Positions 1 to 37,948 of a stretch of DNA of 64,000 nucleotides are shown piece by piece; the stretch's first letter is position 1, and each line of letters begins with the position of its first letter. The translations under genes were made by a program, and so were the position numbers. Below the pieces are notes generated by a model, which did not search any database, had not been told where the DNA came from, and saw only the letters and a program-made list of their open reading frames with translations. The DNA lies in IMG/VR virus record IMGVR_UViG_3300037313_000197, positions 62,891 through 126,890 of that record, one strand, 5' to 3'. This DNA is from a virus.

Positions 1-979
1 CCAACTTATAGTCAATACGTCCGGGGCGAATAAGAGCCGGGTCAAGAGAATCAACGTGGTTGGTAGTAATGAAGGTGATTAGACCACGTGGAGTAGCCAC
101 ACCATCTAGAGCATTCAGCAGACCAGCCAGCGTAGGCGTTTCCTTTTCGGTATTACGAGACACCGTGCTGGTGAAGATATCGATATCTTCAATCAAAAGG
201 ATGGAGTCGTTCGTAACATCACCGATAAGAGCGGACAGAGACTTGTCATTAGTTACCGCGCTCAGGTTCAGGGTATACAGGTCCATACTCAACTCATTAG
301 CCAGAGCAAGTGTCATGCTGCTCTTTCCATTACCCGGCTCGCCATAGAGCATATAGCCACGGTGCCATGGAATACCGACCCTATCGTAATCGTCAGGGCT
401 GTTTCGGAAGTTATCGATATCGGTAAGCAGAGCCTCCTTGACACCCTCAGGAAGAAAGACCGAACCCATGGTGCGCTTGGGAAGGTAAATGCATTCCCAT
501 CCATAGTTACCAACGCTAAAGAGACATGTCTTATTCTCGGTCTTAGCGGCCTTCTTACGAAGATCATCGAGAAGACGCTCTAGAGCACGGATTCCCTCTT
601 CACCACTGGAAGAGAAAGTAAGAACTTCGCGGCGGTTGATAAGACGTGCACCACCCATGGCCTCCATTGGGCTATCAGGAGAGTCCTGACCCATCGAAAC
701 AGTCAACTTGTGACCATCGATGTAAACAGGAATACCCTCCTTGGCATCGAGGTATCGAGCAATGCCATCACGATCCACGAGAAACTTATAGTTCTTTCCG
801 GTAACTCGCTCGTTGAGCCAAGCCATCAGTTCTCCGTAACCGAAAGCATCGTCTTCCACCGTGGCGAAGTACCTGTTTCGGTTGGTGTACCAATTGTGCA
901 GGTTTTTGCCGTGGTTATAGATTGTCATTCCAAGAGCAACACCCTTGGCGACCTTTTCGATCTTTGACTTGGCGTCCAT
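1..979 (-). CDS. BCS1-like AAA+ ATPase (3' end runs off the window)
   Basis: Hand translation from ATG at 979: GIPWHRGYMLYGEPGNGKSS (Walker A), LLIEDID (Walker B), TTNHVDSLDPALIRPGRID (second region of homology). Absent from the ORF track because no stop lies in the window. Confidence 0.85.
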   Translation of the reverse strand, partial: MDAKSKIEKVAKGVALGMTIYNHGKNLHNWYTNRNRYFATVEDDAFGYGELMAWLNERVTGKNYKFLVDRDGIARYLDAKEGIPVYIDGHKLTVSMGQDSPDSPMEAMGGARLINRREVLTFSSSGEEGIRALERLLDDLRKKAAKTENKTCLFSVGNYGWECIYLPKRTMGSVFLPEGVKEALLTDIDNFRNSPDDYDRVGIPWHRGYMLYGEPGNGKSSMTLALANELSMDLYTLNLSAVTNDKSLSALIGDVTNDSILLIEDIDIFTSTVSRNTEKETPTLAGLLNALDGVATPRGLITFITTNHVDSLDPALIRPGRIDYKL

Positions 980-989
980 TAATTACCTT

Positions 990-1157
990 TCAGGGAGTAT
1001 CGACGGATGGAACACAACCATACCCGCCAGAAGCCTTAACTACAAGCACACCATGCTTATTGTCACATGTGCGCTTCTCATTGCCGTAGTAGATGATTCC
1101 TCCGATAATCAGGACAATCAGAAGAACAACACCTACAGTTGCACCAAACTTTTCCAT
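990..1157 (-). CDS. Small membrane protein (55 aa)
   Basis: Hand translation MEKFGATVGVVLLIVLIIGGIIYY...; fills the gap between neighbours. Confidence 0.6.
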   Translation of the reverse strand: MEKFGATVGVVLLIVLIIGGIIYYGNEKRTCDNKHGVLVVKASGGYGCVPSVDTP

Positions 1158-1165
1158 AATGTTCC

Positions 1166-20019: not shown

Positions 20020-20763
20020 TTAGTTTAACACATCAGACTCTAGAAGGTCAAGCATTCCATTGTCTGTTTCCATCTTCCACACCCGGCGCTTTGCATTGGT
20101 GCTTTCAATACGGTTAGTAGCCCTATTGTAGTACTCAAATGGAAGGTCACGTGCCTCGCTGTAGAAGTATCGGCCATTGAAGAACGGGTCAGGAATCGGA
20201 AGAACATCAGGGTTCTTCTCTCGGATCATGTCGAGCATATCAGCCTTGTTCTTGCCTTGCAACTCCTTGTGACTGAACATCGACTGAGCCTGCATGGAAA
20301 TAGCATTCCTATTTGCATCGGCCTTGCGCCAGAGGAAGTAGTCGAGCACGTCCTCACGCTTCGTCAGACGGATCACACGAGCGTCGAAAACGGCTGGCTT
20401 TTTACCGGCGTGCGCGTGGTGTGCGTTGAAAAATCCGGTAAAGGTAGAGGCGCTTACAGACACGATCTTTTCCACCTTGCCACCAAACCATCCCTGCTCA
20501 TGCTCACGCTCATCAATGAGAAGCGAAATCTCATCAGACTGAGTGTAGGCAAACTTAACAGGAATATCAGAGTTGCGGCAAGTGTCATAAACAGCATTGT
20601 TCATAGCGCTGTGAAGCATACCATCAAAAGGCTTAACTAGGCCCTTGGTGTAGGTGTGGAAAGCCTTACCGTCAAGTCGGACGATCAGCCAACCGTCAGG
20701 CAGGATGCTGGAAGAATGCATCCTCTCAATAGCCTTGAACTTATCTCCAAGTTCAGTGTGCAT
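20020..20763 (-). CDS. thg1: tRNA-His guanylyltransferase (Thg1/TLP family)
   Basis: VRLDGKAFHTYTK..KPFD, YTQSDEISL, FDAR, YFLWRKAD..RNAISM. Confidence 0.92.
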   Translation of the reverse strand: MHTELGDKFKAIERMHSSSILPDGWLIVRLDGKAFHTYTKGLVKPFDGMLHSAMNNAVYDTCRNSDIPVKFAYTQSDEISLLIDEREHEQGWFGGKVEKIVSVSASTFTGFFNAHHAHAGKKPAVFDARVIRLTKREDVLDYFLWRKADANRNAISMQAQSMFSHKELQGKNKADMLDMIREKNPDVLPIPDPFFNGRYFYSEARDLPFEYYNRATNRIESTNAKRRVWKMETDNGMLDLLESDVLN

Positions 20764-20773
20764 TAGTTACTCC

Positions 20774-22222
20774 TTACGTTACTGCTGACCATGTACCGGG
20801 CGATCCGCTAGCAGTGCAGACCCAGAACTTTGTATTTGAATTGGTGTTTGTGTTGACAACATAGTCACCCTTACGCCATACACCACTTGTCGGTGCTCCG
20901 GTACTTTCTGTAAGGTTCTTACATTGCCACTTGCGAACATTGGCAAGATCAGCACCCGCGCCGATCTTTCTGTCGAACGTCCAGCCAGTGAAGTCTACAC
21001 CATTGAGCAGCCAGTTGTGAACAGTCGATCCGGTTGAACCTCCACCGCCGAATGCCCATCCTCCTGTTGTGCCCTTAGCCAAACTTCCTCTGAACTCAAC
21101 ATTTGAAGATGTGCCCCTAGCAGCGTCCTTGATGATTCCCCAAGATGCGTTGCTATGGTTCTTAATGTTTAGATCGAGTAGACCATTGTTTGCAGTATAA
21201 ATTACACAACCGTGGCCGGTGCAGGTATTGATGAAGCCTGAGATTTTGAAATTATACACTTCTGCATTGTAACCAAGGGACAGTCCTGCACCCCCGACGT
21301 TAGTTACTCCCATGCTTCTAATTGTTACATTCTTAGAGTCATCAATCGACACACCCGAAGAAATACCAATTCCATTGCAGTCAAGTGAGGCGATATGAAC
21401 ATTGGTCGCGCCTCTCACGATGACACAGGCTGAACCAGACCTAACATCAGTCTCCTTGGTAATGACTGCTCTGTCAATAGTAACGTCAGAGATTTGTCTA
21501 CCGGCGACTGAGTAGATGCCTAGACCTCCACCACCGGCTGACGTACATACCAATTCCTTGACCACAACATTGCTTACTGAATCACCAGCAACATCATTAG
21601 GCTCAATGTCAAAACCCGAAGGCATTGCAATAGCGCCGGTAGCAGTATCACCTTGGTGACCAGTCTTTACAGAATTAATCCTGCGGAATCTGAAAATCGA
21701 TCCCTTGATGATAGAAACAGCATTCCTGCCAGTGTGAGAATCTGATATGGAGTTCACTGTGTCAATGTACACGCCTGAGGTATTGTTGGTAGAACCACCG
21801 GCGATGTAAATACTATCGCCTGCTGGGTTCTTGCTGTTCAGGGTGGTTACTGTGAAGTTTGTGCAATTGTCAAGACGAATATCATGCTTTGCCTCATCCA
21901 CCGGCCAAAGCGTACCGCCGACAGCAAACTTATTATTCATTACGTTACCGTCAGTATTGATCGTATCAATGACTGTATCAGTACAGTTAACAAAGGCAAT
22001 GATCGACTGTCTTGGCGAATTGTCTCTACGCTTGATAGTTCCGATAAAGTGCATGCGGAAACCGGTCTTGCCATTAACTACAAGACCGTCCGCTCTGAAC
22101 TCACCGGCAGGAACCAGAATCTTGCTATTGTTATTAATAGCAGTTTGGATTGCCGCTGTGTTGTCAGCGCCGGGGGTAACACCCAAAGAGGCTAGGCTTA
22201 CGTAATCTGAATAATCTGTCAT
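20774..22222 (-). CDS. Right-handed beta-helix (pectin-lyase-like) depolymerase or tailspike-like protein
   Basis: SLGVTPGADNTAAIQTAIN..ILVPAGEF N-terminal motif, repeated beta-helix rungs, GFDIEPN, C-terminal WRKGDYVVN..FWVCTASGSPGTW. Confidence 0.75.
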   Translation of the reverse strand: MTDYSDYVSLASLGVTPGADNTAAIQTAINNNSKILVPAGEFRADGLVVNGKTGFRMHFIGTIKRRDNSPRQSIIAFVNCTDTVIDTINTDGNVMNNKFAVGGTLWPVDEAKHDIRLDNCTNFTVTTLNSKNPAGDSIYIAGGSTNNTSGVYIDTVNSISDSHTGRNAVSIIKGSIFRFRRINSVKTGHQGDTATGAIAMPSGFDIEPNDVAGDSVSNVVVKELVCTSAGGGGLGIYSVAGRQISDVTIDRAVITKETDVRSGSACVIVRGATNVHIASLDCNGIGISSGVSIDDSKNVTIRSMGVTNVGGAGLSLGYNAEVYNFKISGFINTCTGHGCVIYTANNGLLDLNIKNHSNASWGIIKDAARGTSSNVEFRGSLAKGTTGGWAFGGGGSTGSTVHNWLLNGVDFTGWTFDRKIGAGADLANVRKWQCKNLTESTGAPTSGVWRKGDYVVNTNTNSNTKFWVCTASGSPGTWSAVT

Positions 22223-22223
22223 A

Positions 22224-22592
22224 TCAACTCTTACAAGGATTTGCCTTGACGTACCCGATGAACGTTCCCTTATCAGTAATTACATCAAAGAGCACCTGAG
22301 TGTTAGCGTTCTGGATAGTTCCTACCGTAATAGTATTGTTAGATGGATCGACTACATTTGGTGTCCAGTCTGTTGCTGGGAATCCATTGATATTTACACC
22401 AAGTACATTGTGCGTACCGGTCAGAGTCAGATAAAGGCGATAGTCGGCAGCCTGACGCTGAGCAGGCAACTTACATGACTTATCGGTATCCAGACCTTCT
22501 GTTACAGAAGCGGCAACAGCAGGAGCGGCGGTAGCAATCAAAACTGCTGGCACTGTCCATGCAGCACCCTTTACTACTGTTCTACGCTCCAT
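22224..22592 (-). CDS. Secreted protein with a twin-arginine-like leader
   Basis: MERRTVVKGAAWTVPAVLIATAAPAVAAS, a leader typical of actinobacterial exported proteins. Confidence 0.75.
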   Translation of the reverse strand: MERRTVVKGAAWTVPAVLIATAAPAVAASVTEGLDTDKSCKLPAQRQAADYRLYLTLTGTHNVLGVNINGFPATDWTPNVVDPSNNTITVGTIQNANTQVLFDVITDKGTFIGYVKANPCKS

Positions 22593-23806: not shown

Positions 23807-23933
23807 TGTTCACCTTTCGTTAATAACCAACTGGTCAGCCACTCGCATCCCACCCGTTTGTTCCAGTTAGGCATTCTTGTTGCCATACTTGTGCTGGTCA
23901 CCGGCCTAAGCCTTGTCCGCTGTGTTAGTTAAG

Positions 23934-24236
23934 TGGAGCCGGGAGGATTTGAACCTCCGTCTTACTACCGTCCGCATAGTTCCGTCTTACAGTCATAGTG
24001 CTTTAAGATATCACCCATCTGCGCCAGCGAACTGGACCACCTTCAACTTTGGCAGAGTTGACAACTGTACTACTGAAAACTCTAACTTGGTTAATAAGGT
24101 GTTAGAGAACCCCATCCTGAACTAAATCAGGCTGCTAGAGCGTAGTCTGCATTTATTGTTTTTGGACGTTTTAGTGATCCGTCCAATCACGACTGAGAAC
24201 CATGTTTAGTTGTAGTAATCGAAACCTGTCGGCCCC
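23934..24236 (-). ncRNA. ssrA: tmRNA, 303 nt, tag (A)ADYALAA
   Basis: 5' GGGGCCGACAGGTTTCGA, 3' GGAGGTTCAAATCCTCCCGGCTCCA with G3:U70; ATAAAT-GCA resume context, GCA GAC TAC GCT CTA GCA GCC TGA at 24150-24127. Confidence 0.93.
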
Positions 24237-24901: not shown

Positions 24902-24982
24902 GCCCGCGATGAGGGATTCGAACCAAACACATCACCGGTGGCTGCGCAACCCCGGCATTTTACCAATTAAACTAATCGCGGA
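24902..24982 (-). ncRNA. tRNA-like RNA with an extended anticodon arm and a broken T-stem
   Basis: TCCGCGAT/ATCGCGGG, D-arm TAGTTTAATTGGTAAAA, GCCGG-GGTTGCGCAGCCA-CCGGT, TTCGAAT loop flanked by TTTGG/CCCTC. Confidence 0.55.
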
Positions 24983-25077: not shown

Positions 25078-25113
25078 TAATGAAATCCACACTTGCAAAT
25101 GCTTCATTCACTG

Positions 25114-25187
25114 TGTCTCTAGTAGGATTCGAACCTACAAGTCTTTGGTTTAGGAAACCACTGCATTATCCGTTATGCTATAGAGAC
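25114..25187 (-). tRNA. tRNA-Arg(CCT)
   Basis: GTCTCTA/TAGAGAC, loop TTCCTAA. Confidence 0.9.
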
Positions 25188-25705
25188 TGGTGGGGTCGGA
25201 ACATTGCGCAATTCCTGTCACCAAAAGCAGTATCTAGGCTTAATGTACACTTGGCTTCGACTTACTTTCGACTCAACCCCCGTGGATCAGCCGTGACTTG
25301 CACACGGAAGTTTCAGCGTCCTCATGAGGCTTTAGACTGAAACTAGTTCTATTCACTGACCCAAGTGCAAACCATTGCTTTCGCTCTTGCCAGTTCCCGG
25401 CTTGCTAGGATATTAGAGTCCGTTACGTCTAAACGCAATCTGGCCGACTATGTTATTGGTGACTGAGTAAGCACCCATCAAACTCAGGCACCAAGTACAG
25501 AGGGTGAACAAGGGCTTAGGGACTTATTGACGTTGCCAGAATTACGGTTTCTACGAGTGACACGCATTGTCTTTAGTTTTAAACCTTGTTCACCATGAAG
25601 TTATAATGTCCGTTAACTTTTGCGAGCGCGAGGTAGGTTCCCAAGAGCATTGAGCACGGACTACACTCAATCCTACCCCACTACATACCCCCGCAAGGAT
25701 ATGTA
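25188..25705 (-). ncRNA. Candidate large structured ncRNA (~520 nt) ending in ACCA
   Basis: No ORF of 60 aa or more on the coding strand; many helices (11 bp 25503-13/25584-94, 8 bp 25309-16/25337-44, 6+6 bp 25456-68/25482-94); 3' end CGACCCC-ACCA. Confidence 0.6.
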
Positions 25706-25756
25706 ATTGCATTTATTTGCGAACCGTGCTATTGGTTCCTCCATTGTTTAAGATTA

Positions 25757-26098
25757 TCAGGCGTTGTTTCCGCTGTCAAGACTAGACTCTACACGATCCT
25801 CTTCGTCAGTGTCAACATGTACCGGAACTTCCCTTTCGTTCCAGTATGCACCTGCCGTCACTGTACCGGGCTTGACCTCAGTTCGTCCAGCATCAATGAT
25901 TACAACTTCACACTCTTCGATCTGTCTCTTTGTTCCGTCAAGAACAATGACCGGACCTCCGTGATGAGAGCCTACCAGTTGAAGCGCGGCGTGTACAGCC
26001 TGAGCAGCCAACTTCTTTGGACTCATCTTTGCATCCTTACGAACCTTAATTACTAATCTAAGTTCTTTAGGAACTTCTTCATTCTCAGACATTTTCAA
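25757..26098 (-). CDS. pth2: Peptidyl-tRNA hydrolase, Pth2 type
   Basis: VRKDAKMSPKKLAAQAVHA, IDAGRTEVKPGTVT. Confidence 0.88.
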   Translation of the reverse strand: MKMSENEEVPKELRLVIKVRKDAKMSPKKLAAQAVHAALQLVGSHHGGPVIVLDGTKRQIEECEVVIIDAGRTEVKPGTVTAGAYWNEREVPVHVDTDEEDRVESSLDSGNNA

Positions 26099-27995: not shown

Positions 27996-29189
27996 TTAGT
28001 CCTCCTTGACGAGCGAAACCTCCCTCTGAGGTTTGACTGATGCCAAGGCTAGTGGGAAGACCGGTTTGTTGTCAAGTGCGGCAAAGAGGTACTTTGTGTG
28101 GTATGTGTACTTCTTTGCTTCCAGAGCAAATTCCTTACGCGAGACCATATCGTAACGCTCGCCAAGATCATGCTCGATCTGGTCAAGAATTCGGTCAGTC
28201 TGCATAACGATATCAATGGCTTCTGCGAACAGACGATTAGCCACATCATCAATGAACTTGTGGAATTCCTCAGGAAGATCACGCTTTAGATCAGACACAG
28301 TTCCTCCATTGACAAGGTGCTGCCAAATAGACTTTTCTGTTAGACCAGAAACGAGGCGGTGAATACGAACATACTCCGCTGCCTTCATCTTGGTTCTGAA
28401 ATTACGTGTCGGCCAGAGGTACACAAAACCCTCATCACCGGCAGGAATGTCCTGATCTTGTCCAGAGTCAAACCCGGCAACAGGCTTACGAACAACCTTA
28501 TCAGGCCATGCGCAGTTATCGAATTCATCCGTGTCAGGGAAGCCAGTAGCATTGTCGATAACGTCGATGAGTACAAGACCTTCGTACTCACCGTAGTCAA
28601 CTACAATTCGGTTCTCAGGGTAGATGATTTCGAATAGATATGTCTTGTCTTCCTTGGGACGGAACATTTTCTCACCCAACATCACCGTCTTATTGAAGAA
28701 CTTCGTAGCCCACTCAGCCTGCTCAGAATGCATGGAGCCACGTGTGGCGATTGCATACTTGCGAGAATCATAGGTAACCCCGTCAACTTCAAACGTCTCA
28801 GTAACGTGTGAGTAAAGAATACCCAGCGATCCATCCATCTTAGGCATGCGCAATGCAGGGCCGGTAGGCGGATAAGGTGCCCCGCTCTCATCCCAATTCA
28901 TGAATTTGGGGAATGGCCTCGCCACAACTTCCATGGTTTCGTGATTGTAAATAAGACCTCTACAAGCCTTGTTGGTTTCAGACCAGTGACGACCAAACTG
29001 GCAGGCAGGGGTATAGTTTAGAATTGTAAGGGGAAGTTCGTTGTGAGGGCGTGCAGACACCAGACCATCAGCGATGGATTTAGCCAATTCCTGCTCGTTC
29101 ACAACATCATACAGATGTACCATTGTTCCTTGCCTTTCTACAGGTCTTGCACTGCCTACGGCCTTGATACCAGTAGGTGTTTTCGTCAT
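27996..29189 (-). CDS. rnl: RNA ligase 1 (T4 RnlA-like)
   Basis: CRGLI..VVARPFPKFMN, PKMDGSLG, FEII..NRIVVDY, EGFV, KMKAAEY; start trimmed to MTKTP. Confidence 0.9.
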   Translation of the reverse strand: MTKTPTGIKAVGSARPVERQGTMVHLYDVVNEQELAKSIADGLVSARPHNELPLTILNYTPACQFGRHWSETNKACRGLIYNHETMEVVARPFPKFMNWDESGAPYPPTGPALRMPKMDGSLGILYSHVTETFEVDGVTYDSRKYAIATRGSMHSEQAEWATKFFNKTVMLGEKMFRPKEDKTYLFEIIYPENRIVVDYGEYEGLVLIDVIDNATGFPDTDEFDNCAWPDKVVRKPVAGFDSGQDQDIPAGDEGFVYLWPTRNFRTKMKAAEYVRIHRLVSGLTEKSIWQHLVNGGTVSDLKRDLPEEFHKFIDDVANRLFAEAIDIVMQTDRILDQIEHDLGERYDMVSRKEFALEAKKYTYHTKYLFAALDNKPVFPLALASVKPQREVSLVKED

Positions 29190-30100: not shown

Positions 30101-31642
30101 TCAGCCTCGCGCAAGATCACGAATGTTCTTGATTGTCGTGCGCTCAACAAACTCACCGTTCTTCCAAACAGTTGTCAGTTCAGACTTCTTCAAAGCCCAC
30201 TCAGAAGCATCGTCAACTGCGTAGTACTCACCGGTCTCAGTGTTGCGAAGCACTGCAATGCGACCACGGAGCGACTTCTTTGTACCGCCATCAGTGACAG
30301 GGTTCTTAAAGATTGGCTTCTCTACACCGTCGATGACAACGTTGGTAGCCTTCATGGCAAATCCAAATGTGTCACGCGTCTGGTACTGGTAACCGAAACT
30401 ACCCATGCCGAAGACAACATTGGCACTAGCAAATCCCTTAGCGTCAAGACGCTCTAGAATGTTCTTTGCACGCTCGTAGTTGATCGAGTCACCATAGATA
30501 ACACCAATGTGAGAATCGAGCAACTTGTGACCCGTCTCGGTGTAAATACCGCCGAACGTCTCCCAGAGCAGTTCTACAACACCCTTGGACTCGGCGTCAG
30601 AATAATCAATGGTTTCCAACAACTTGCCGGTCCTAGTGTTCATACCACAAAGGATATCAGCAGGATCACCAGAGTCAGGACGAATAACCAACTTGCCATC
30701 GCGAGCAAGAATCTTATCCTTTAGCGAAGGCACCGTCTCAGTGACAACCTTCCACAAGTCCCACGTGTCAGAGACAACCGAGAGAATTCCCGAAGGGTAA
30801 AGGTCGATCAGGCGCTCGTAAGTCTCGCGCTCGTCATCCTCACCACCGGCACACATCACAGAGTGCTCAGTAGCAGCAACAGAGCCACCAATGAGGTAAG
30901 TGTCGTCCAGTTCAAGCCAGCCGGGAGCATCCATGGCAAAGTCGAAACCATCATCGCTGTTCTTAAGAACAGGGTAGTACGTCTCAATAAAGTCAATTGC
31001 AGGAATAGTGTCTGTGCCAGTGAACTGAGTCAGGTGACCAAATCCAGAAAGCACCGCCGACTCAACACCGGCCATTCCACGCATCGAAAAGTCATGACCC
31101 TGCCAGTCAACAAACTCCTTGGGAGAGCCAGTCTTAACAGCGTACTCATCGAGCAGTCCACGCATGCGCTTTGCAATTGTAGCGCTCGTCATCGGCATCC
31201 AGAGGACATTCGACATAAGCGTCTCGATGTAGTTCACGAGCCAGAAGAAATCAGGATGAGTGTTCTCGACCGTAAACATCGGCACACGAAGCGGAACAAG
31301 AGCACCCTCAGGAAGAGCCTTGAATTCCAGAGGCAGGTAACCGAGCGCGTGAAGATCACGAATGTGCTGGTCACCAATCTCATTAGGGCCAAGGTAACCA
31401 AGAGTGCGTCGGTTGTATTCAGCAACCACGTCCTCAACGTCACGGTCGAAGAAGGTATCGTTAAACTGGTTTCCAAGGTACTCCTGTAGGAAGTACTGTA
31501 GACCGACATTGACGACCTTATCGATGCCCTTGATACGTGAAACACGCGGCGTCCAGTTGGAGTAAACAAACTCAGTACCAGCGGGATATTGCCTTCTGTG
31601 GTCAAGTTTGTAACCGTCAATAAGAGTAATAGCATTAAACAT
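30101..31642 (-). CDS. nadV: Nicotinamide phosphoribosyltransferase-like protein (NadV / Namat candidate)
   Basis: DGYKLDH..QYP, HDFSMRG, SVAATEHSVMC, SVVSDTWD, VIRPDSGDP, IYGDSI, FGMGS, KKSLRG. Confidence 0.92.
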   Translation of the reverse strand: MFNAITLIDGYKLDHRRQYPAGTEFVYSNWTPRVSRIKGIDKVVNVGLQYFLQEYLGNQFNDTFFDRDVEDVVAEYNRRTLGYLGPNEIGDQHIRDLHALGYLPLEFKALPEGALVPLRVPMFTVENTHPDFFWLVNYIETLMSNVLWMPMTSATIAKRMRGLLDEYAVKTGSPKEFVDWQGHDFSMRGMAGVESAVLSGFGHLTQFTGTDTIPAIDFIETYYPVLKNSDDGFDFAMDAPGWLELDDTYLIGGSVAATEHSVMCAGGEDDERETYERLIDLYPSGILSVVSDTWDLWKVVTETVPSLKDKILARDGKLVIRPDSGDPADILCGMNTRTGKLLETIDYSDAESKGVVELLWETFGGIYTETGHKLLDSHIGVIYGDSINYERAKNILERLDAKGFASANVVFGMGSFGYQYQTRDTFGFAMKATNVVIDGVEKPIFKNPVTDGGTKKSLRGRIAVLRNTETGEYYAVDDASEWALKKSELTTVWKNGEFVERTTIKNIRDLARG

Positions 31643-32468
31643 GAGTAACCAGTCCTTCCGAGACTTCCAGCACCTTGACAGGTGGATTGTTGATTGTAAT
31701 AGAGTCTGTTGCGTAAATGTTCTCGTATCGCTGTTCTAGGGCAGAAGTGCCCTTGGTGAACAGGCCATGAGTAACGTAGAGGTCAAGATGCACACCATAC
31801 ACCGTTCTGATATTGTCTGCAAGACCTACGAACGTACCGCCGCCATCACACAAATCATCTACCACAAGGTAGCGCATTGCAGGAATCAGTGTGTCTATCA
31901 TCTTGAATCCAGACAACTTGTTTGTGCGAGGATCACGAACCTTTGTTGCGTGGTACACCGGAACATCAAACTGCTTAGCGGCATCTTCTGCTCGCTTCGA
32001 TGCTCCAAGGTCAGGAGCAATGATTCCGTCATACTTGACGCCGGGATTAACTTCCTCAATCATGTGGCGAAGGCGAACATCAACAATTTCTAGATTGTTA
32101 ATCATACTGCTCGCCAGAGAGTGAGGGTCAAGAGTCATAACCTTGTCGAAACCCTGAGCATTAATCATATTCGCAACGGACTTAAGGGTAAAGAGCCAGT
32201 CGCCCTCCCACTTAATCCTATCCTGTCGTGCGCCGGGAATGCAGGGAAGAATCAGATTCTTAATCCTACGACCGCGCTCACGAAAAGAGTCCGCAACCAG
32301 CATTCCGGTAACGAACTCCTGTAGAGAGTTGGGACGGAGAAGCATAATAGCATTCTCGTCTGTGGCATTCCATGCCCGTTCCAGATCAACAACGGGTGTG
32401 TTGTCTGGATAAAGACCCAACTCTAGCGTAACCATTCGATTACGCCTATTTCCAATTTGTATTGACAT
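31635..32468 (-). CDS. prs: Ribose-phosphate pyrophosphokinase-like protein (Prs / Adps candidate)
   Basis: LPCIPGARQDR, DPHS, IAPDLGA, KVRD, VVDDLCDGGGTF, YVTHGLF; start trimmed to MSIQI. Confidence 0.9.
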   Translation of the reverse strand: MSIQIGNRRNRMVTLELGLYPDNTPVVDLERAWNATDENAIMLLRPNSLQEFVTGMLVADSFRERGRRIKNLILPCIPGARQDRIKWEGDWLFTLKSVANMINAQGFDKVMTLDPHSLASSMINNLEIVDVRLRHMIEEVNPGVKYDGIIAPDLGASKRAEDAAKQFDVPVYHATKVRDPRTNKLSGFKMIDTLIPAMRYLVVDDLCDGGGTFVGLADNIRTVYGVHLDLYVTHGLFTKGTSALEQRYENIYATDSITINNPPVKVLEVSEGLVTHV

Positions 32469-32520
32469 TGTTGTTCCTCTTTCTCTACGAGTACCGGCGC
32501 TTGTCAAACCCGGTAAGATT

Positions 32521-36743: not shown

Positions 36744-37031
36744 TTATCCATTAATGTCATCCTCCGTAATCGTAAATTGCTTTACTGCTGTCATGGCATC
36801 TCTGTCTGCTACAAGGCTCTTGATCTTCTCACAGGCTACCGCCCGAGCATCCTCTTCTGTACCGCCAAAGTCCTGACGCCATACAGCACTTCTGCTGTAC
36901 TCAACGTCCGGGGCAGCGACGAAATACTTTACGTCCTCAACAACCAATGTCCACAAGTTCTTGCCCTGCGGAGTGACAGTTGCAATATACTTACACGTTG
37001 TCTTGGCGTTGTCATTTGCTGCAATGCTCAA
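36744..37031 (-). CDS. Hypothetical protein
   Basis: TTG start, 4-nt overlap with the esterase gene. Confidence 0.55.
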   Translation of the reverse strand: MSIAANDNAKTTCKYIATVTPQGKNLWTLVVEDVKYFVAAPDVEYSRSAVWRQDFGGTEEDARAVACEKIKSLVADRDAMTAVKQFTITEDDING

Positions 37032-37861
37032 TTTGTCTTACTCCTTAACCATGTAATCATGTTGTTCCAACGTACCATATCGTCTTGGCCGGTGCCAGTC
37101 AGCATAGTCTCATCATGACCTCTACCGGCGACCTTAACAGTCACGTGTTCTTGTCCTGCTTTTGTTAGCCAGTATTCAATGGCATCAATTGTTGATGGTG
37201 GTACAGCCTCATCAGAATCCCCCTGAACGGCATAAAACGGTGGCTTTTCTGCTCCAAAGTATGTCTCTGGCTTAAAGGAATTCCATGCTGCTCCTGCATT
37301 ACCCCATGTAGGCTCATAGGAATAACCAAGTGCCGCACAAGCGTATCCAAACAACTTGACAACTGTAGGAGTGCACATGTCATTGCCCCAACCACCATTC
37401 ATAGAAACATCTGCTAGGCGGTGCGGCTGCAAGACACCAGAGCATGTTACTACCGCTCTAACACTATTGTAATATCCTGATACAACTGCTGCAACATGTC
37501 CACCGGCGCTGAATCCGTAAAGTGCCACACGGCTAGGATTTAGACCAAACTTAGAAGCATTGGCCTTAAACCAATTAGTTGCTAGTGCAGCATCGATTCT
37601 CTGATACGGCCAGCGCCATCCCTTGTTCGATCCGTTATCAGAAACGAGCCGGTAGTTAATATTAAATACAACAAATCCCGCTGCATAGAACATTTCAGAA
37701 ATCTTAGTCGATGCTTCCTTTGAAGCATTAGCCCAAGAACCTCCATGGATTACAACAATGCCGGGACGTGAATTTGCCGACCAAGAATCGTCGTAATAAA
37801 CGTCTCCATTCTGGTCGGCATCGTCGGTGTAATAATTAAAAGTTTGAATTTGTTTTGTCAT
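37028..37861 (-). CDS. Alpha/beta-hydrolase (HSL-type esterase)
   Basis: IHGGSW oxyanion hole, GFSAGG nucleophile, QGDSDEAVP, GHD; start trimmed to MTKQIQ below the Lys tRNA. Confidence 0.88.
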   Translation of the reverse strand: MTKQIQTFNYYTDDADQNGDVYYDDSWSANSRPGIVVIHGGSWANASKEASTKISEMFYAAGFVVFNINYRLVSDNGSNKGWRWPYQRIDAALATNWFKANASKFGLNPSRVALYGFSAGGHVAAVVSGYYNSVRAVVTCSGVLQPHRLADVSMNGGWGNDMCTPTVVKLFGYACAALGYSYEPTWGNAGAAWNSFKPETYFGAEKPPFYAVQGDSDEAVPPSTIDAIEYWLTKAGQEHVTVKVAGRGHDETMLTGTGQDDMVRWNNMITWLRSKTN

Positions 37862-37862
37862 G

Positions 37863-37948
37863 TGAATGGGGAGGGATTTGAACCCCCGGTGGCGTTTCCG
37901 CTCTTGATTAAAAGTCAAGCCCAATCGACCATGCTCTGGCACCCATTC
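37863..37948 (-). tRNA. tRNA with a Lys(TTT) anticodon on a class II scaffold
   Basis: GAATGGG/CCCATTC-A73, 3-bp D stem CCA/TGG, loop CTTTTAA, variable arm GCG-GAAA-CGC. Confidence 0.85.

What the first reader, a model, noticed from the sequence alone, without database searches (positions are those of the whole stretch)
25188..25705. Candidate ~520-nt structured RNA with an ACCA 3' end that abuts tRNA-Arg
Seen: this is the longest gene-free stretch in an otherwise tightly packed genome. It lies between pth2 and tRNA-Arg(CCT) and is dense in helices: 11 bp 25503-13/25584-94; 8 bp 25309-16/25337-44 around a CCTCATGAGG palindrome; a 6+6 bp hairpin 25456-68/25482-94; 7 bp 25248-54/25361-67; 8 bp 25630-37/25672-79 around a 5-bp inner stem; a hairpin at 25682-25705; and a possible pseudoknot 25331-37/25427-33. 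The minus-strand 3' end CGACCCC-ACCA can form a 7-bp acceptor-like helix with GGGGUUG (25274-80) or, with one mismatch, with the 5' GGGGUAG (25673-79). Its last A is directly adjacent to G1 of tRNA-Arg. Known: RNase P cuts at a tRNA 5' end, and large phage RNAs such as GOLLD and ROOL sit among tRNA genes. Inference: a large phage ncRNA, possibly a new class, released with an exact CCA end by tRNA processing.
Basis: partly seen in the sequence, partly recalled or inferred. Interest (0 to 1): 0.85.

Follow-up and report, generated by a model that had tools for sequence, protein, structure and literature searches.

The report
Phage structured RNA plus mini-tmRNA
The gap between pth2 and tRNA-Arg in this uncultured 127-kb phage is real non-coding RNA, but it is most likely three units rather than one: a new ~380-base structured RNA found only in this small phage clade, an 80-base tag-less "mini-tmRNA" that over 80 Streptomyces phages also carry unannotated, and a 93-base CCA-ended tRNA-shaped piece.

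Summary
The stretch is non-coding, structured and under selection. It matches no Rfam 15 family at E<=10. Against the only other lineage found (a 131-kb IMG/VR phage, G001, plus two fragments), three blocks are conserved in the same order with compensatory changes. These are a 150-nt pseudoknotted 5' domain (13 of 37 pairs changed on both sides), a 39-nt hairpin with an invariant 13-nt loop, and an 80-nt tRNA-like element.

The single ~520-nt RNA reading is only partly supported. A model of the tRNA-like element (25283-25362) finds it standing alone among tRNAs in cluster-BE Streptomyces phages. There it is unannotated in 82 records. The same model also finds the published CDS-less tmRNA of mycobacteriophage DS6A. 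The element keeps an invariant G3.U70 pair and an A discriminator, so it is a divergent tag-less mini-tmRNA. This scan has reported that kind before on other DNA.

The 5' ~380 nt (25363-25741) is absent from 54 related phage records and has no known relative. It is the new part.

The ACCA end abutting tRNA-Arg is real and conserved in G001, but lost in a close relative of G001. Whether it closes one large RNA or a local tRNA-shaped element is unresolved.

The parts
25786..25815 (-). Promoter-like site (TTGACA, 18 nt, TAGAGT) inside the 3' end of pth2, upstream of the RNA.
   Evidence: G001 has the equivalent site (L002 4302-4330). It also has a second site, TTGACA-17-TAGACT, ending 8 nt before the conserved RNA start. 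These are consensus matches only.
25592..25741 (-). Conserved 5' domain. Its parts are hairpin Ha (25721-25738), Hb (25709-25720), Hc (25683-25704, loop UUGCGG), helix He (25672-25679 with 25630-25637), and hairpin Hf inside He (25649-25671). The 11-nt loop of Hf (25656-25662) pairs with 25606-25613 to form a pseudoknot.
   Evidence: Alignment A3: 37 pairs, 98% of cells paired, 13 pairs changed on both sides, 0 of 500 shuffles as good, slid controls 2 or fewer. Model R1 scores 170 bits here and 185 bits in G001, and finds nothing elsewhere.
25503..25594 (-).
   Evidence: G001 has about 265 nt of unalignable sequence at this position, bounded by a direct repeat AACTTCATAGAT. L003 carries yet another insert there.
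25456..25494 (-). Hairpin Hh: 6+6 bp with an invariant 13-nt loop, UUGAUGGGUGCUU.
   Evidence: Alignment A5: 12 pairs, 100% paired, 3 pairs changed on both sides, none in the slid controls.
25363..25455 (-). Variable region V2. It ends in the conserved CACUU just before the mini-tmRNA.
   Evidence: G001 has about 170 nt here with little similarity.
25283..25362 (-). Tag-less mini-tmRNA (tRNA-like element). Its parts are a 7-bp acceptor stem with G3.U70 (25356-62 with 25284-90), discriminator A (25283), a P2-like 7-bp stem (25337-43 with 25310-16) capped by a 20-nt loop, and a T arm (25291-25307, loop UGCAAGU).
   Evidence: nine sequences, 10 covarying pairs, G.U invariant. Homology to DS6A. 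Partial matches to Rfam tmRNA in Pepperwood and DS6A.
25188..25280 (-). CCA-ended, tRNA-shaped element. GGGGUUG (25274-80) can pair with CGACCCC (25192-98), followed by A and CCA (25188-91). Alternatively this is the 3' tail of a larger RNA.
   Evidence: The MFE fold gives a closed three-way junction. Rfam and ARAGORN do not call it a tRNA. Only the last 8 nt are shared with G001. The segment is absent from L041.
25113..25187 (-). tRNA-Arg(CCT), whose G1 abuts the ACCA end.
   Evidence: 63.6 bits. It is conserved in G001 and L041.

Best explanation
The interval is the 5' part of a transcription unit that starts at a promoter inside the end of pth2 and runs into tRNA-Arg and the tRNA-like genes beyond. 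It holds three RNA units in series.

(A) About 380 nt (25741-25363). This is a structured RNA specific to this phage clade. It has a pseudoknotted 150-nt 5' domain, a variable stem, a hairpin with an invariant 13-nt loop, and a variable spacer.

(B) An 80-nt tag-less mini-tmRNA (25362-25283).

(C) A 93-nt tRNA-shaped piece ending in an encoded ACCA (25280-25188).

Inferred mechanism: RNase P cuts at the 5' ends of B and of tRNA-Arg. This frees A with a ...CACUU 3' end and C with an exact CCA end. After 3' trimming and CCA completion, B is charged with alanine by the host AlaRS through G3.U70 and A73. It then engages SmpB, EF-Tu and stalled ribosomes, but it carries no tag message. It therefore competes with, or short-circuits, tmRNA tagging in the infected actinobacterial cell. 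The neighbouring Pth2 could release peptides from it.

Unit A most likely acts as a stable protein-binding or decoy RNA of the translation and RNA-repair island. Its target is unknown.

Shown here: conservation, covariation, absence of a conserved ORF, homology of B, and the adjacency geometry. Inferred: every processing step, the charging, and all functions.
For: Structure and selection.
- The 5' domain, hairpin Hh and B keep 98-100% of their pairs. They show 13, 3 and 3 compensatory pairs between two lineages whose pth2 is 78% identical and whose PolIII alpha is 77% identical.
- The only ORF of note in the 5' domain is 40 aa here and stops after 14 codons in G001.

B is independent of A.
- Model R2 finds one site per genome in cluster-BE phages at 31-42 bits. 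Ordinary tRNAs of the window score 22 bits or less.
- In Pepperwood the site lies in an unannotated gap between tRNA-Val and tRNA-Leu. 82 phage records carry it with no annotation.
- R1 (unit A) is absent from those genomes and from 50 IMG/VR relatives.

B is a mini-tmRNA.
- G3.U70 is present in 9 of 9 sequences, and the discriminator A is invariant.
- Rfam tmRNA aligns the Pepperwood copy as a tRNA-like domain with the middle deleted (21.8-30.3 bits).
- R2 hits the DS6A CDS-less tmRNA site (32.2 bits, E 2e-6), where Rfam tmRNA gives 43.2 bits.
- PMC11915505 states that the DS6A form inhibited endogenous tmRNA in E. coli.

Context: Thg1-like, Rnl1, Pnk, Pth2, a full tmRNA and more than 36 tRNAs.

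Abutting idiom: other CCA-ended tRNAs in this genome sit 0-1 nt before the next tRNA.

Promoter-like sites are conserved upstream in both lineages.
Against: - There are no expression or end-mapping data at all.
- Only two independent lineages carry A, so the covariation is counted on very few events.
- The window's own B gets no Rfam tmRNA or tRNA hit. Its T loop (UGCAAGU) and D region differ from the canonical form kept in BE phages and DS6A.
- C is not recognised as tRNA-like by any program, and G001 does not conserve its shape.
- Both lineages conserve the 3' CCCCACCA together with a complementary 5' GUGGGG. The three-unit reading does not explain this.
- The phage also has a full tmRNA and no SmpB gene, so the benefit of a competitor is unclear.
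Confidence: 0.58

Rival explanations
1. One large RNA of about 490-555 nt is closed by a long-range helix between the 5' GUGGGG (25675-25680) and the 3' CCCCAC. The tRNA-like element is an internal domain. The exact ACCA end is made by RNase P cutting at tRNA-Arg.
For: The MFE fold of the whole interval pairs GUGGGGU with ACCCCAC. Both strands of this helix are conserved between G000 and G001, although the roughly 100 nt before the 3' end are unalignable. Each lineage can form 7 bp, offset by one position. GOLLD RNAs are known to lie among tRNA genes and sometimes to contain them (own knowledge).
Against: - The same GGGG is the outer part of helix He, whose innermost pair covaries (G-C to U-A).
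- The tRNA-like block is a free-standing gene in more than 80 phages that lack the rest.
- It has the acceptor and T-arm geometry that RNase P recognises, and U at position -1 like the real tRNAs here.
- L041 is 98% identical to G001 in the core, yet it has replaced the 3' segment and lacks CCCCACCA before tRNA-Arg.
- The six common pairs are invariant, so no covariation test is possible.
Confidence: 0.2
2. Unit A is not a stable trans-acting RNA. It is a cis-acting leader of the operon for the mini-tmRNA, tRNA-Arg and tRNA-like genes. It could be a folding or processing platform, or a sensor that sets transcription or maturation of what follows.
For: In both lineages it sits directly after promoter-like sites, at the 5' end of the unit. 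No terminator-like site lies on the minus strand between it and the downstream RNAs. The CACUU leader before the mini-tmRNA is conserved.
Against: No expression platform (terminator or sequestering helix) was found. BE phages and DS6A express their mini-tmRNA without such a leader. Conserved loops of 11-13 nt and a pseudoknot suggest a binding surface rather than a spacer.
Confidence: 0.12
3. The interval is a graveyard of decaying tRNA and tmRNA copies with no present function.
For: The array is full of odd tRNA-shaped elements. The spacers V1, V2 and unit C turn over fast, and segments are shuffled between close relatives.
Against: Compensatory changes keep 98-100% of the pairs in three blocks. 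A 40-nt run is identical across lineages whose flanking protein is 78% identical. The G.U wobble is kept in 9 of 9 sequences.
Confidence: 0.05

Closest known systems
CDS-less ('tRNA-like domain only') tmRNA of Mycobacterium phage DS6A (JN698994.1 28478-28560). Source: Mao et al. 2009, as cited in PMC11915505.
   Same: Applies to unit B. Shared features: a 7-bp acceptor with G3.U70, discriminator A, a short P2 stem capped by a GAAA/AAA-RCC-N6-GG loop in place of the pseudoknots and tag, a T arm, and a phage of an actinobacterial host. My model built from G000 and G001 hits the DS6A site at E 2e-6.
   Different: The window's copy has a non-canonical T loop (UGCAAGU) and a D region without GG. 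It gets no Rfam tmRNA score. It also coexists with a full-length tmRNA in the same genome.
Mitochondrial (jakobid) and plastid tmRNAs without a tag reading frame (PMC11915505; Jacob et al. 2004, cited there).
   Same: They are reduced to the alanine-accepting domain, yet conserved.
   Different: They are organellar, often permuted or two-piece, and co-occur with SmpB. Nothing suggests common descent with the phage forms.
GOLLD (RF01998) and ROOL (RF03087) large ornate RNAs (PMC12286853, PMC5737381).
   Same: Applies to unit A. Shared features: a large phage-borne structured RNA of unknown function next to tRNA genes, with conserved blocks separated by variable-length stems.
   Different: No covariance-model match at E<=10 in the window or in G001. 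A is smaller, has no demonstrated closing helix, and was found in only one small clade. Oligomerisation was not tested.
Stable RNAs 'species 1 and 2' (rnaC, rnaD) of the phage T4 tRNA cluster
   Same: Small stable RNAs of unknown function, co-transcribed with phage tRNAs (next to tRNA-Arg) and released by tRNA processing enzymes.
   Different: No sequence relation was tested. The T4 RNAs are about 120-140 nt.

Membership tests
GOLLD (RF01998) / ROOL (RF03087) | A match to the family covariance model. | tested here: not met
   cmscan of Rfam 15 at E<=10 with permissive filters finds nothing in 25180-25760 or in the G001 copy.
RNase P RNA, Y RNA/YrlA, 6S/Ms1, group I/II introns | A match to any Rfam model of these families. 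| tested here: not met
   The only hit in the interval is a chance-level microRNA model (16 bits, E 1.7).
tmRNA, CDS-less form (unit B) | A 7-bp acceptor stem with a G3.U70 wobble and discriminator A (the AlaRS identity set). | tested here: met
   G.U is present in 9 of 9 family members including the window. A is invariant after the stem.
tmRNA, CDS-less form (unit B) | A T arm abutting the 3' acceptor strand, and a P2-like stem in place of an anticodon arm with no anticodon loop. | tested here: met
   The 5-bp T stem has 3 covarying pairs. The P2 stem covaries across BE phages. The loop is 17-20 nt.
tmRNA, CDS-less form (unit B) | Detectable homology to an accepted member (DS6A). | tested here: met
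   R2 hits DS6A 28468-28564 at 32.2 bits, E 1.8e-6, which is the only hit in that genome. The architecture aligns.
tmRNA (RF00023), full family | The Rfam gathering score (47 bits) and a tag reading frame. | tested here: not met
   Window copy: no hit. Pepperwood: 21.8-30.3 bits. DS6A: 43.2 bits. No mRNA-like domain is present.
tmRNA, CDS-less form (unit B) | A canonical T loop (UUCGAnU) and a tmRNA-type D loop with GG. | tested here: not met
   BE phages and DS6A have both features. G000 and G001 have UGCAAGU and a D region without GG.
tmRNA, CDS-less form (unit B) | Alanylation, SmpB binding, and interference with trans-translation. | not testable with these tools
   These need biochemistry. 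The only support is the literature statement about DS6A.
tRNA (RF00005), units B and C | A match to the tRNA model or a default ARAGORN call. | tested here: not met
   No tRNA hit at E<=10 in 25188-25362. ARAGORN finds B only at -ps80 with a forced intron, and never finds C.

The most novel reading that the evidence does not exclude
Unit A (25363-25741) is the founding member of a new class of phage structured RNA that works together with the mini-tmRNA it precedes. For example, it could bind SmpB, a ribosomal factor or an RNA-repair enzyme. Alternatively A, B and C could stay together as one ACCA-ended particle. Two short stretches of A also occur in the phage's own tmRNA: AAUAAAUGCA at the resume codon, and GAUGGGUG. 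This hints at mimicry of tmRNA parts.
Probability: 0.15. Interest if true: 0.8.

Novelty: new variant of a known kind. Interest (0 to 1): 0.6.

Why it matters
Large phages that carry their own tRNA sets are thought to use them to resist host attacks on translation. This locus adds two RNA players beside the tRNAs.

The first is the mini-tmRNA. It sits unannotated in more than 80 cultured Streptomyces phages. Hosts such as S. lividans and S. griseus are genetically tractable. Whether it blocks or redirects ribosome rescue can therefore be tested directly.

The second is the ~380-nt RNA. It has clear structural selection and no known relative. It lies in an island with Pth2, Pnk, Rnl1 and Thg1-like genes, so it is a candidate partner or decoy for translation or RNA-repair factors.

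For annotation, the result shows that an 'empty' spacer in a phage tRNA array can hold several distinct RNA genes that ARAGORN and Rfam miss.

Tried and rejected

The contigs behind 25 pth2 homologues of 56-92% identity could not be fetched. These would probably have given more lineages of unit A.

**Searches for more copies of A**
- Exact-pattern scans found only G001, its fragment L003/L035 and L041. These were three conserved blocks in IMG/VR and one block in the JGI metagenomes.
- All other hits were chance matches in coding DNA. One example is L027, inside a metallo-beta-lactamase-like ORF.
- blastn of the interval against INPHARED phages found nothing.
- pth2-anchored loci from IMG/VR and from GTDB genomes contain no R1 match.
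- L062 has a long non-coding stretch after pth2, but it is unrelated.

- The long-range closure (5' GUGGGG with 3' CCCCAC) could not be separated from the local acceptor (GGGGUUG with CGACCCC). The shared pairs are invariant, and G001's local alternative has a mismatch.

**Other leads dropped**
- Shared 8-mers between A and the phage tmRNA are not more frequent than in shuffles: 4 observed against a mean of 1.9, and 54 of 300 shuffles were as high.
- The complement of the Hc loop (CCGCAAG) occurs downstream of tRNA-Arg in the window. G001 has no convincing counterpart at an equivalent position.
- Reading the mini-tmRNA loop as a short tag gives Ala-Ser-stop here, but no consistent stop in BE phages.
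- No SmpB gene was found in the phage.

Full report
**Setting**

The window is the right half of a complete 126,890-bp IMG/VR phage genome with direct terminal repeats (G000). All 36 ARAGORN tRNAs and a 304-nt tmRNA lie on the minus strand.

The finding lies between pth2 (25757-26098, PF01981) and tRNA-Arg(CCT) (25113-25187). Nearby genes are polynucleotide kinase/phosphatase, a T4 Rnl1-type RNA ligase, two HNH endonucleases and a Thg1-like enzyme.

PolIII alpha is 56-57% identical to the PolIII alpha of the Streptomyces phages Pepperwood and TunaTartare (Stanwilliamsviridae, cluster BE). The order Rnl1, then Pnk, then tRNAs is shared with them. The phage is therefore a distant relative of that family, probably on an actinobacterial host.

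- The interval 25188-25756 has no minus-strand ORF of 60 aa or more and no tRNA. It is the second-longest such gap in the window.
- The ACCA end abuts G1 of tRNA-Arg exactly.
- Folding energy alone is unremarkable: z = -1.5 on the minus strand and -1.7 on the plus strand.
- Rfam 15 gives no match inside the interval at E<=10. This held when 3.5 kb was scanned and when only 581 nt was scanned. The relative's copy also gave nothing.

**Relatives**

pth2-anchored and pattern searches found one other lineage.
- G001 is a complete 131,350-bp phage (loci L002, L012, L048). Its pth2 is 78% identical and its PolIII alpha 77% identical.
- L003/L035 is a fragment very close to G001.
- L041 is an 8.4-kb metagenome contig 98% identical to G001 in the RNA core.

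A pairwise alignment shows three conserved blocks in the same order, separated by unalignable spacers of very different length. The interval is about 570 nt in G000 and about 900 nt in G001.

**Block 1: the 5' domain (25741-25592)**

I wrote a structure of five helices plus a pseudoknot and counted it on the three available sequences.
- 37 pairs, with 98% of cells paired.
- 13 pairs changed on both sides.
- None of 500 shuffles did as well, and structures slid by 1-3 columns gave at most 2.

Two further hairpins lie upstream of his boundary.

The 11-nt loop of the inner hairpin (GUCCGU) pairs with ACGGAC 45 nt downstream. One flanking pair changes from A-U to G-C.

The only ORF of note is 40 aa in G000 and stops after 14 codons in G001. 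The block is therefore not coding.

**Block 2: hairpin Hh (25494-25456)**

Three of its 12 pairs are compensatory, and the 13-nt loop is invariant.

**Block 3: the tRNA-like element (25362-25283)**

A run of 40 nt is identical between the two lineages. The element folds as follows:
- a 7-bp acceptor stem;
- a short D region;
- a 5-bp T stem with a 7-nt loop, directly abutting the 3' acceptor strand.

The T stem has three compensatory pairs. ARAGORN finds the element only at relaxed settings.

**The turning point**

A covariance model of block 3 (R2) was run over related genomes.
- It hit one site per genome in cluster-BE Streptomyces phages at 31-42 bits. Ordinary tRNAs of the window score 22 bits or less.
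- In Pepperwood the site is an unannotated gap between tRNA-Val and tRNA-Leu.
- blastn finds the element in 82 Streptomyces phage records, with no feature annotated under any match.
- The loop AAAGCC-GACAAU-GGAC is identical between G001 and these distant phages.
- On nine distinct sequences, 10 of 23 pairs show compensatory change. The third acceptor pair is G.U in all nine, and the discriminator is always A.
- Rfam's tmRNA model aligns the Pepperwood copy as a tmRNA tRNA-like domain with the central 308 positions deleted (21.8-30.3 bits, below the 47-bit cut-off).

The tmRNA database paper PMC11915505 records a CDS-less tmRNA in mycobacteriophage DS6A. [quoted passage not shown] R2 hits exactly that DS6A site (32.2 bits, E 1.8e-6), where Rfam tmRNA gives 43.2 bits. 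The architecture aligns, including a GAAA-RCC-N6-GG cap on the P2 stem.

Block 3 is therefore a divergent member of the tag-less mini-tmRNA kind. Earlier follow-ups in this scan reached the same reading for similar elements in other phages, including a Streptomyces phage. I consulted those notes only after my own result.

In G000 and G001 the T loop (UGCAAGU) and the D region have both departed from the canonical forms kept in BE phages and DS6A. This explains why Rfam is silent on the window's copy.

**Consequence for the single-RNA model**

The model of the 5' domain (R1) finds only G000 and G001. It finds nothing in the following:
- TunaTartare, Pepperwood, Rhodococcus phage NiceHouse or Microbacterium phage Zooman;
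- 50 IMG/VR records sharing PolIII alpha at 49-60%, 16 of them complete;
- pth2-anchored loci.

So the mini-tmRNA exists widely without the upstream RNA, and it is a gene in its own right. Its acceptor and T-arm geometry, and the U at position -1, match the real tRNAs here. It is a plausible RNase P substrate, as tmRNA precursors are (established knowledge; PMC3985003 abstract). Cleavage there would separate the upstream ~380 nt (unit A) from the rest.

**The 3' end**

The last 93 nt (unit C) can close on itself: GGGGUUG with CGACCCC, then A-CCA. The MFE fold is a three-way junction.

This genome repeatedly places a CCA-ended tRNA 0-1 nt before the next tRNA (Gly then Gln, Val then Ile). An ACCA end abutting tRNA-Arg is therefore the local idiom for tandem tRNA-like genes.

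No program recognises C as a tRNA, and G001's equivalent 122 nt share only the terminal CCCCACCA.

Three points count against a functional closing helix:
- The same G's form the outer part of helix He.
- The six common pairs never vary, so no test is possible.
- L041 has replaced the whole segment between the mini-tmRNA and the next ORF. There, tRNA-Arg and another module are in swapped order, and CCCCACCA is absent before the tRNA.

I cannot explain why the 8-mer is conserved under the three-unit model. I leave 20% on the single-RNA reading.

**Transcription**

Promoter-like sites (TTGACA, 17-18 nt, TAGAGT or TAGACT) lie inside or just after the end of pth2 in both lineages. In G001 one ends 8 nt before the conserved RNA start. 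No terminator-like site lies on the minus strand before the downstream tRNA-like genes. These are consensus matches, not evidence of use.

**What unit A is**

It has no relative in Rfam, in cultured phages or in related metagenomic phages. Its architecture is conserved structured blocks with long invariant loops, a pseudoknot and variable-length stems. This is what protein- or RNA-binding ncRNAs look like, but no closing helix or partner could be identified.

Two short identities with the phage's own tmRNA caught my eye: AAUAAAUGCA at the resume codon, and GAUGGGUG. They are not statistically unusual.

My working view is a stable decoy or scaffold RNA of the translation and RNA-repair island. 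This is a guess.

**Limits**

- Only two lineages carry unit A.
- Two tools that could have added lineages or expression data were unavailable.
- All processing and functional steps are inferred.

Noticed in passing
window 24903-24981 (-); L002 5451-5529; L215 about 2505-2635: An odd tRNA found by Rfam (36 bits) but not by default ARAGORN. It has an enlarged anticodon region and an 8-bp acceptor followed by C. It is conserved in G001 (78%). Pepperwood has a similar tRNA-like gene with a long insert in an unannotated gap. The phage set lacks tRNA-His and tRNA-Asp but encodes a Thg1-like enzyme (20020-20763).
   Followed up: partly
L002 4541-4660 versus L003 4541-4670: In G001 the variable stem V1 carries about 115 nt bounded by the direct repeat AACTTCATAGAT. 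The near-identical relative L003 has a different sequence between the same repeats. This looks like an insertion or replacement hot spot inside the RNA.
   Followed up: no
L041 (reverse complement) 441-865 versus L002 5095-5452: The flanks are 98-99.9% identical, but the segment holding tRNA-Arg and a conserved module (GGTAAGCCGGGAA ... GAGGAAACCCGCAGAGGT) is rearranged, with the two in swapped order. The module is conserved (79%) and may be another RNA element.
   Followed up: partly
window 568-1165: This is the longest stretch of the window without a minus-strand ORF of 60 aa or more or a tRNA (598 nt). It has no DNA match in G001. It was not examined further.
   Followed up: partly
window 23933-24236 (-) versus L012 11246-11605: The full-length phage tmRNAs differ strongly in their tags. 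G000 has a 7-residue tag, ADYALAA. G001 has a 29-residue tag ending in SLVTV, which is not the usual ALAA-type end.
   Followed up: no
window 25188-25280 and 24903-24981: The palindromic hexamer UGCGCA sits in a loop of the CCA-ended element (UUGCGCAAU) and in the loop of the odd tRNA (UUGCGCA). The two loops could kiss each other or themselves.
   Followed up: no
window 37028-37942, 30101-32507, 20774-22592: Auxiliary genes lie inside the tRNA region: an esterase-type alpha/beta hydrolase (BD-FAE), a NAMPT/NAPRTase-like enzyme with a phosphoribosyltransferase, and a 482-aa protein without a Pfam hit next to a 122-aa ORF.
   Followed up: no
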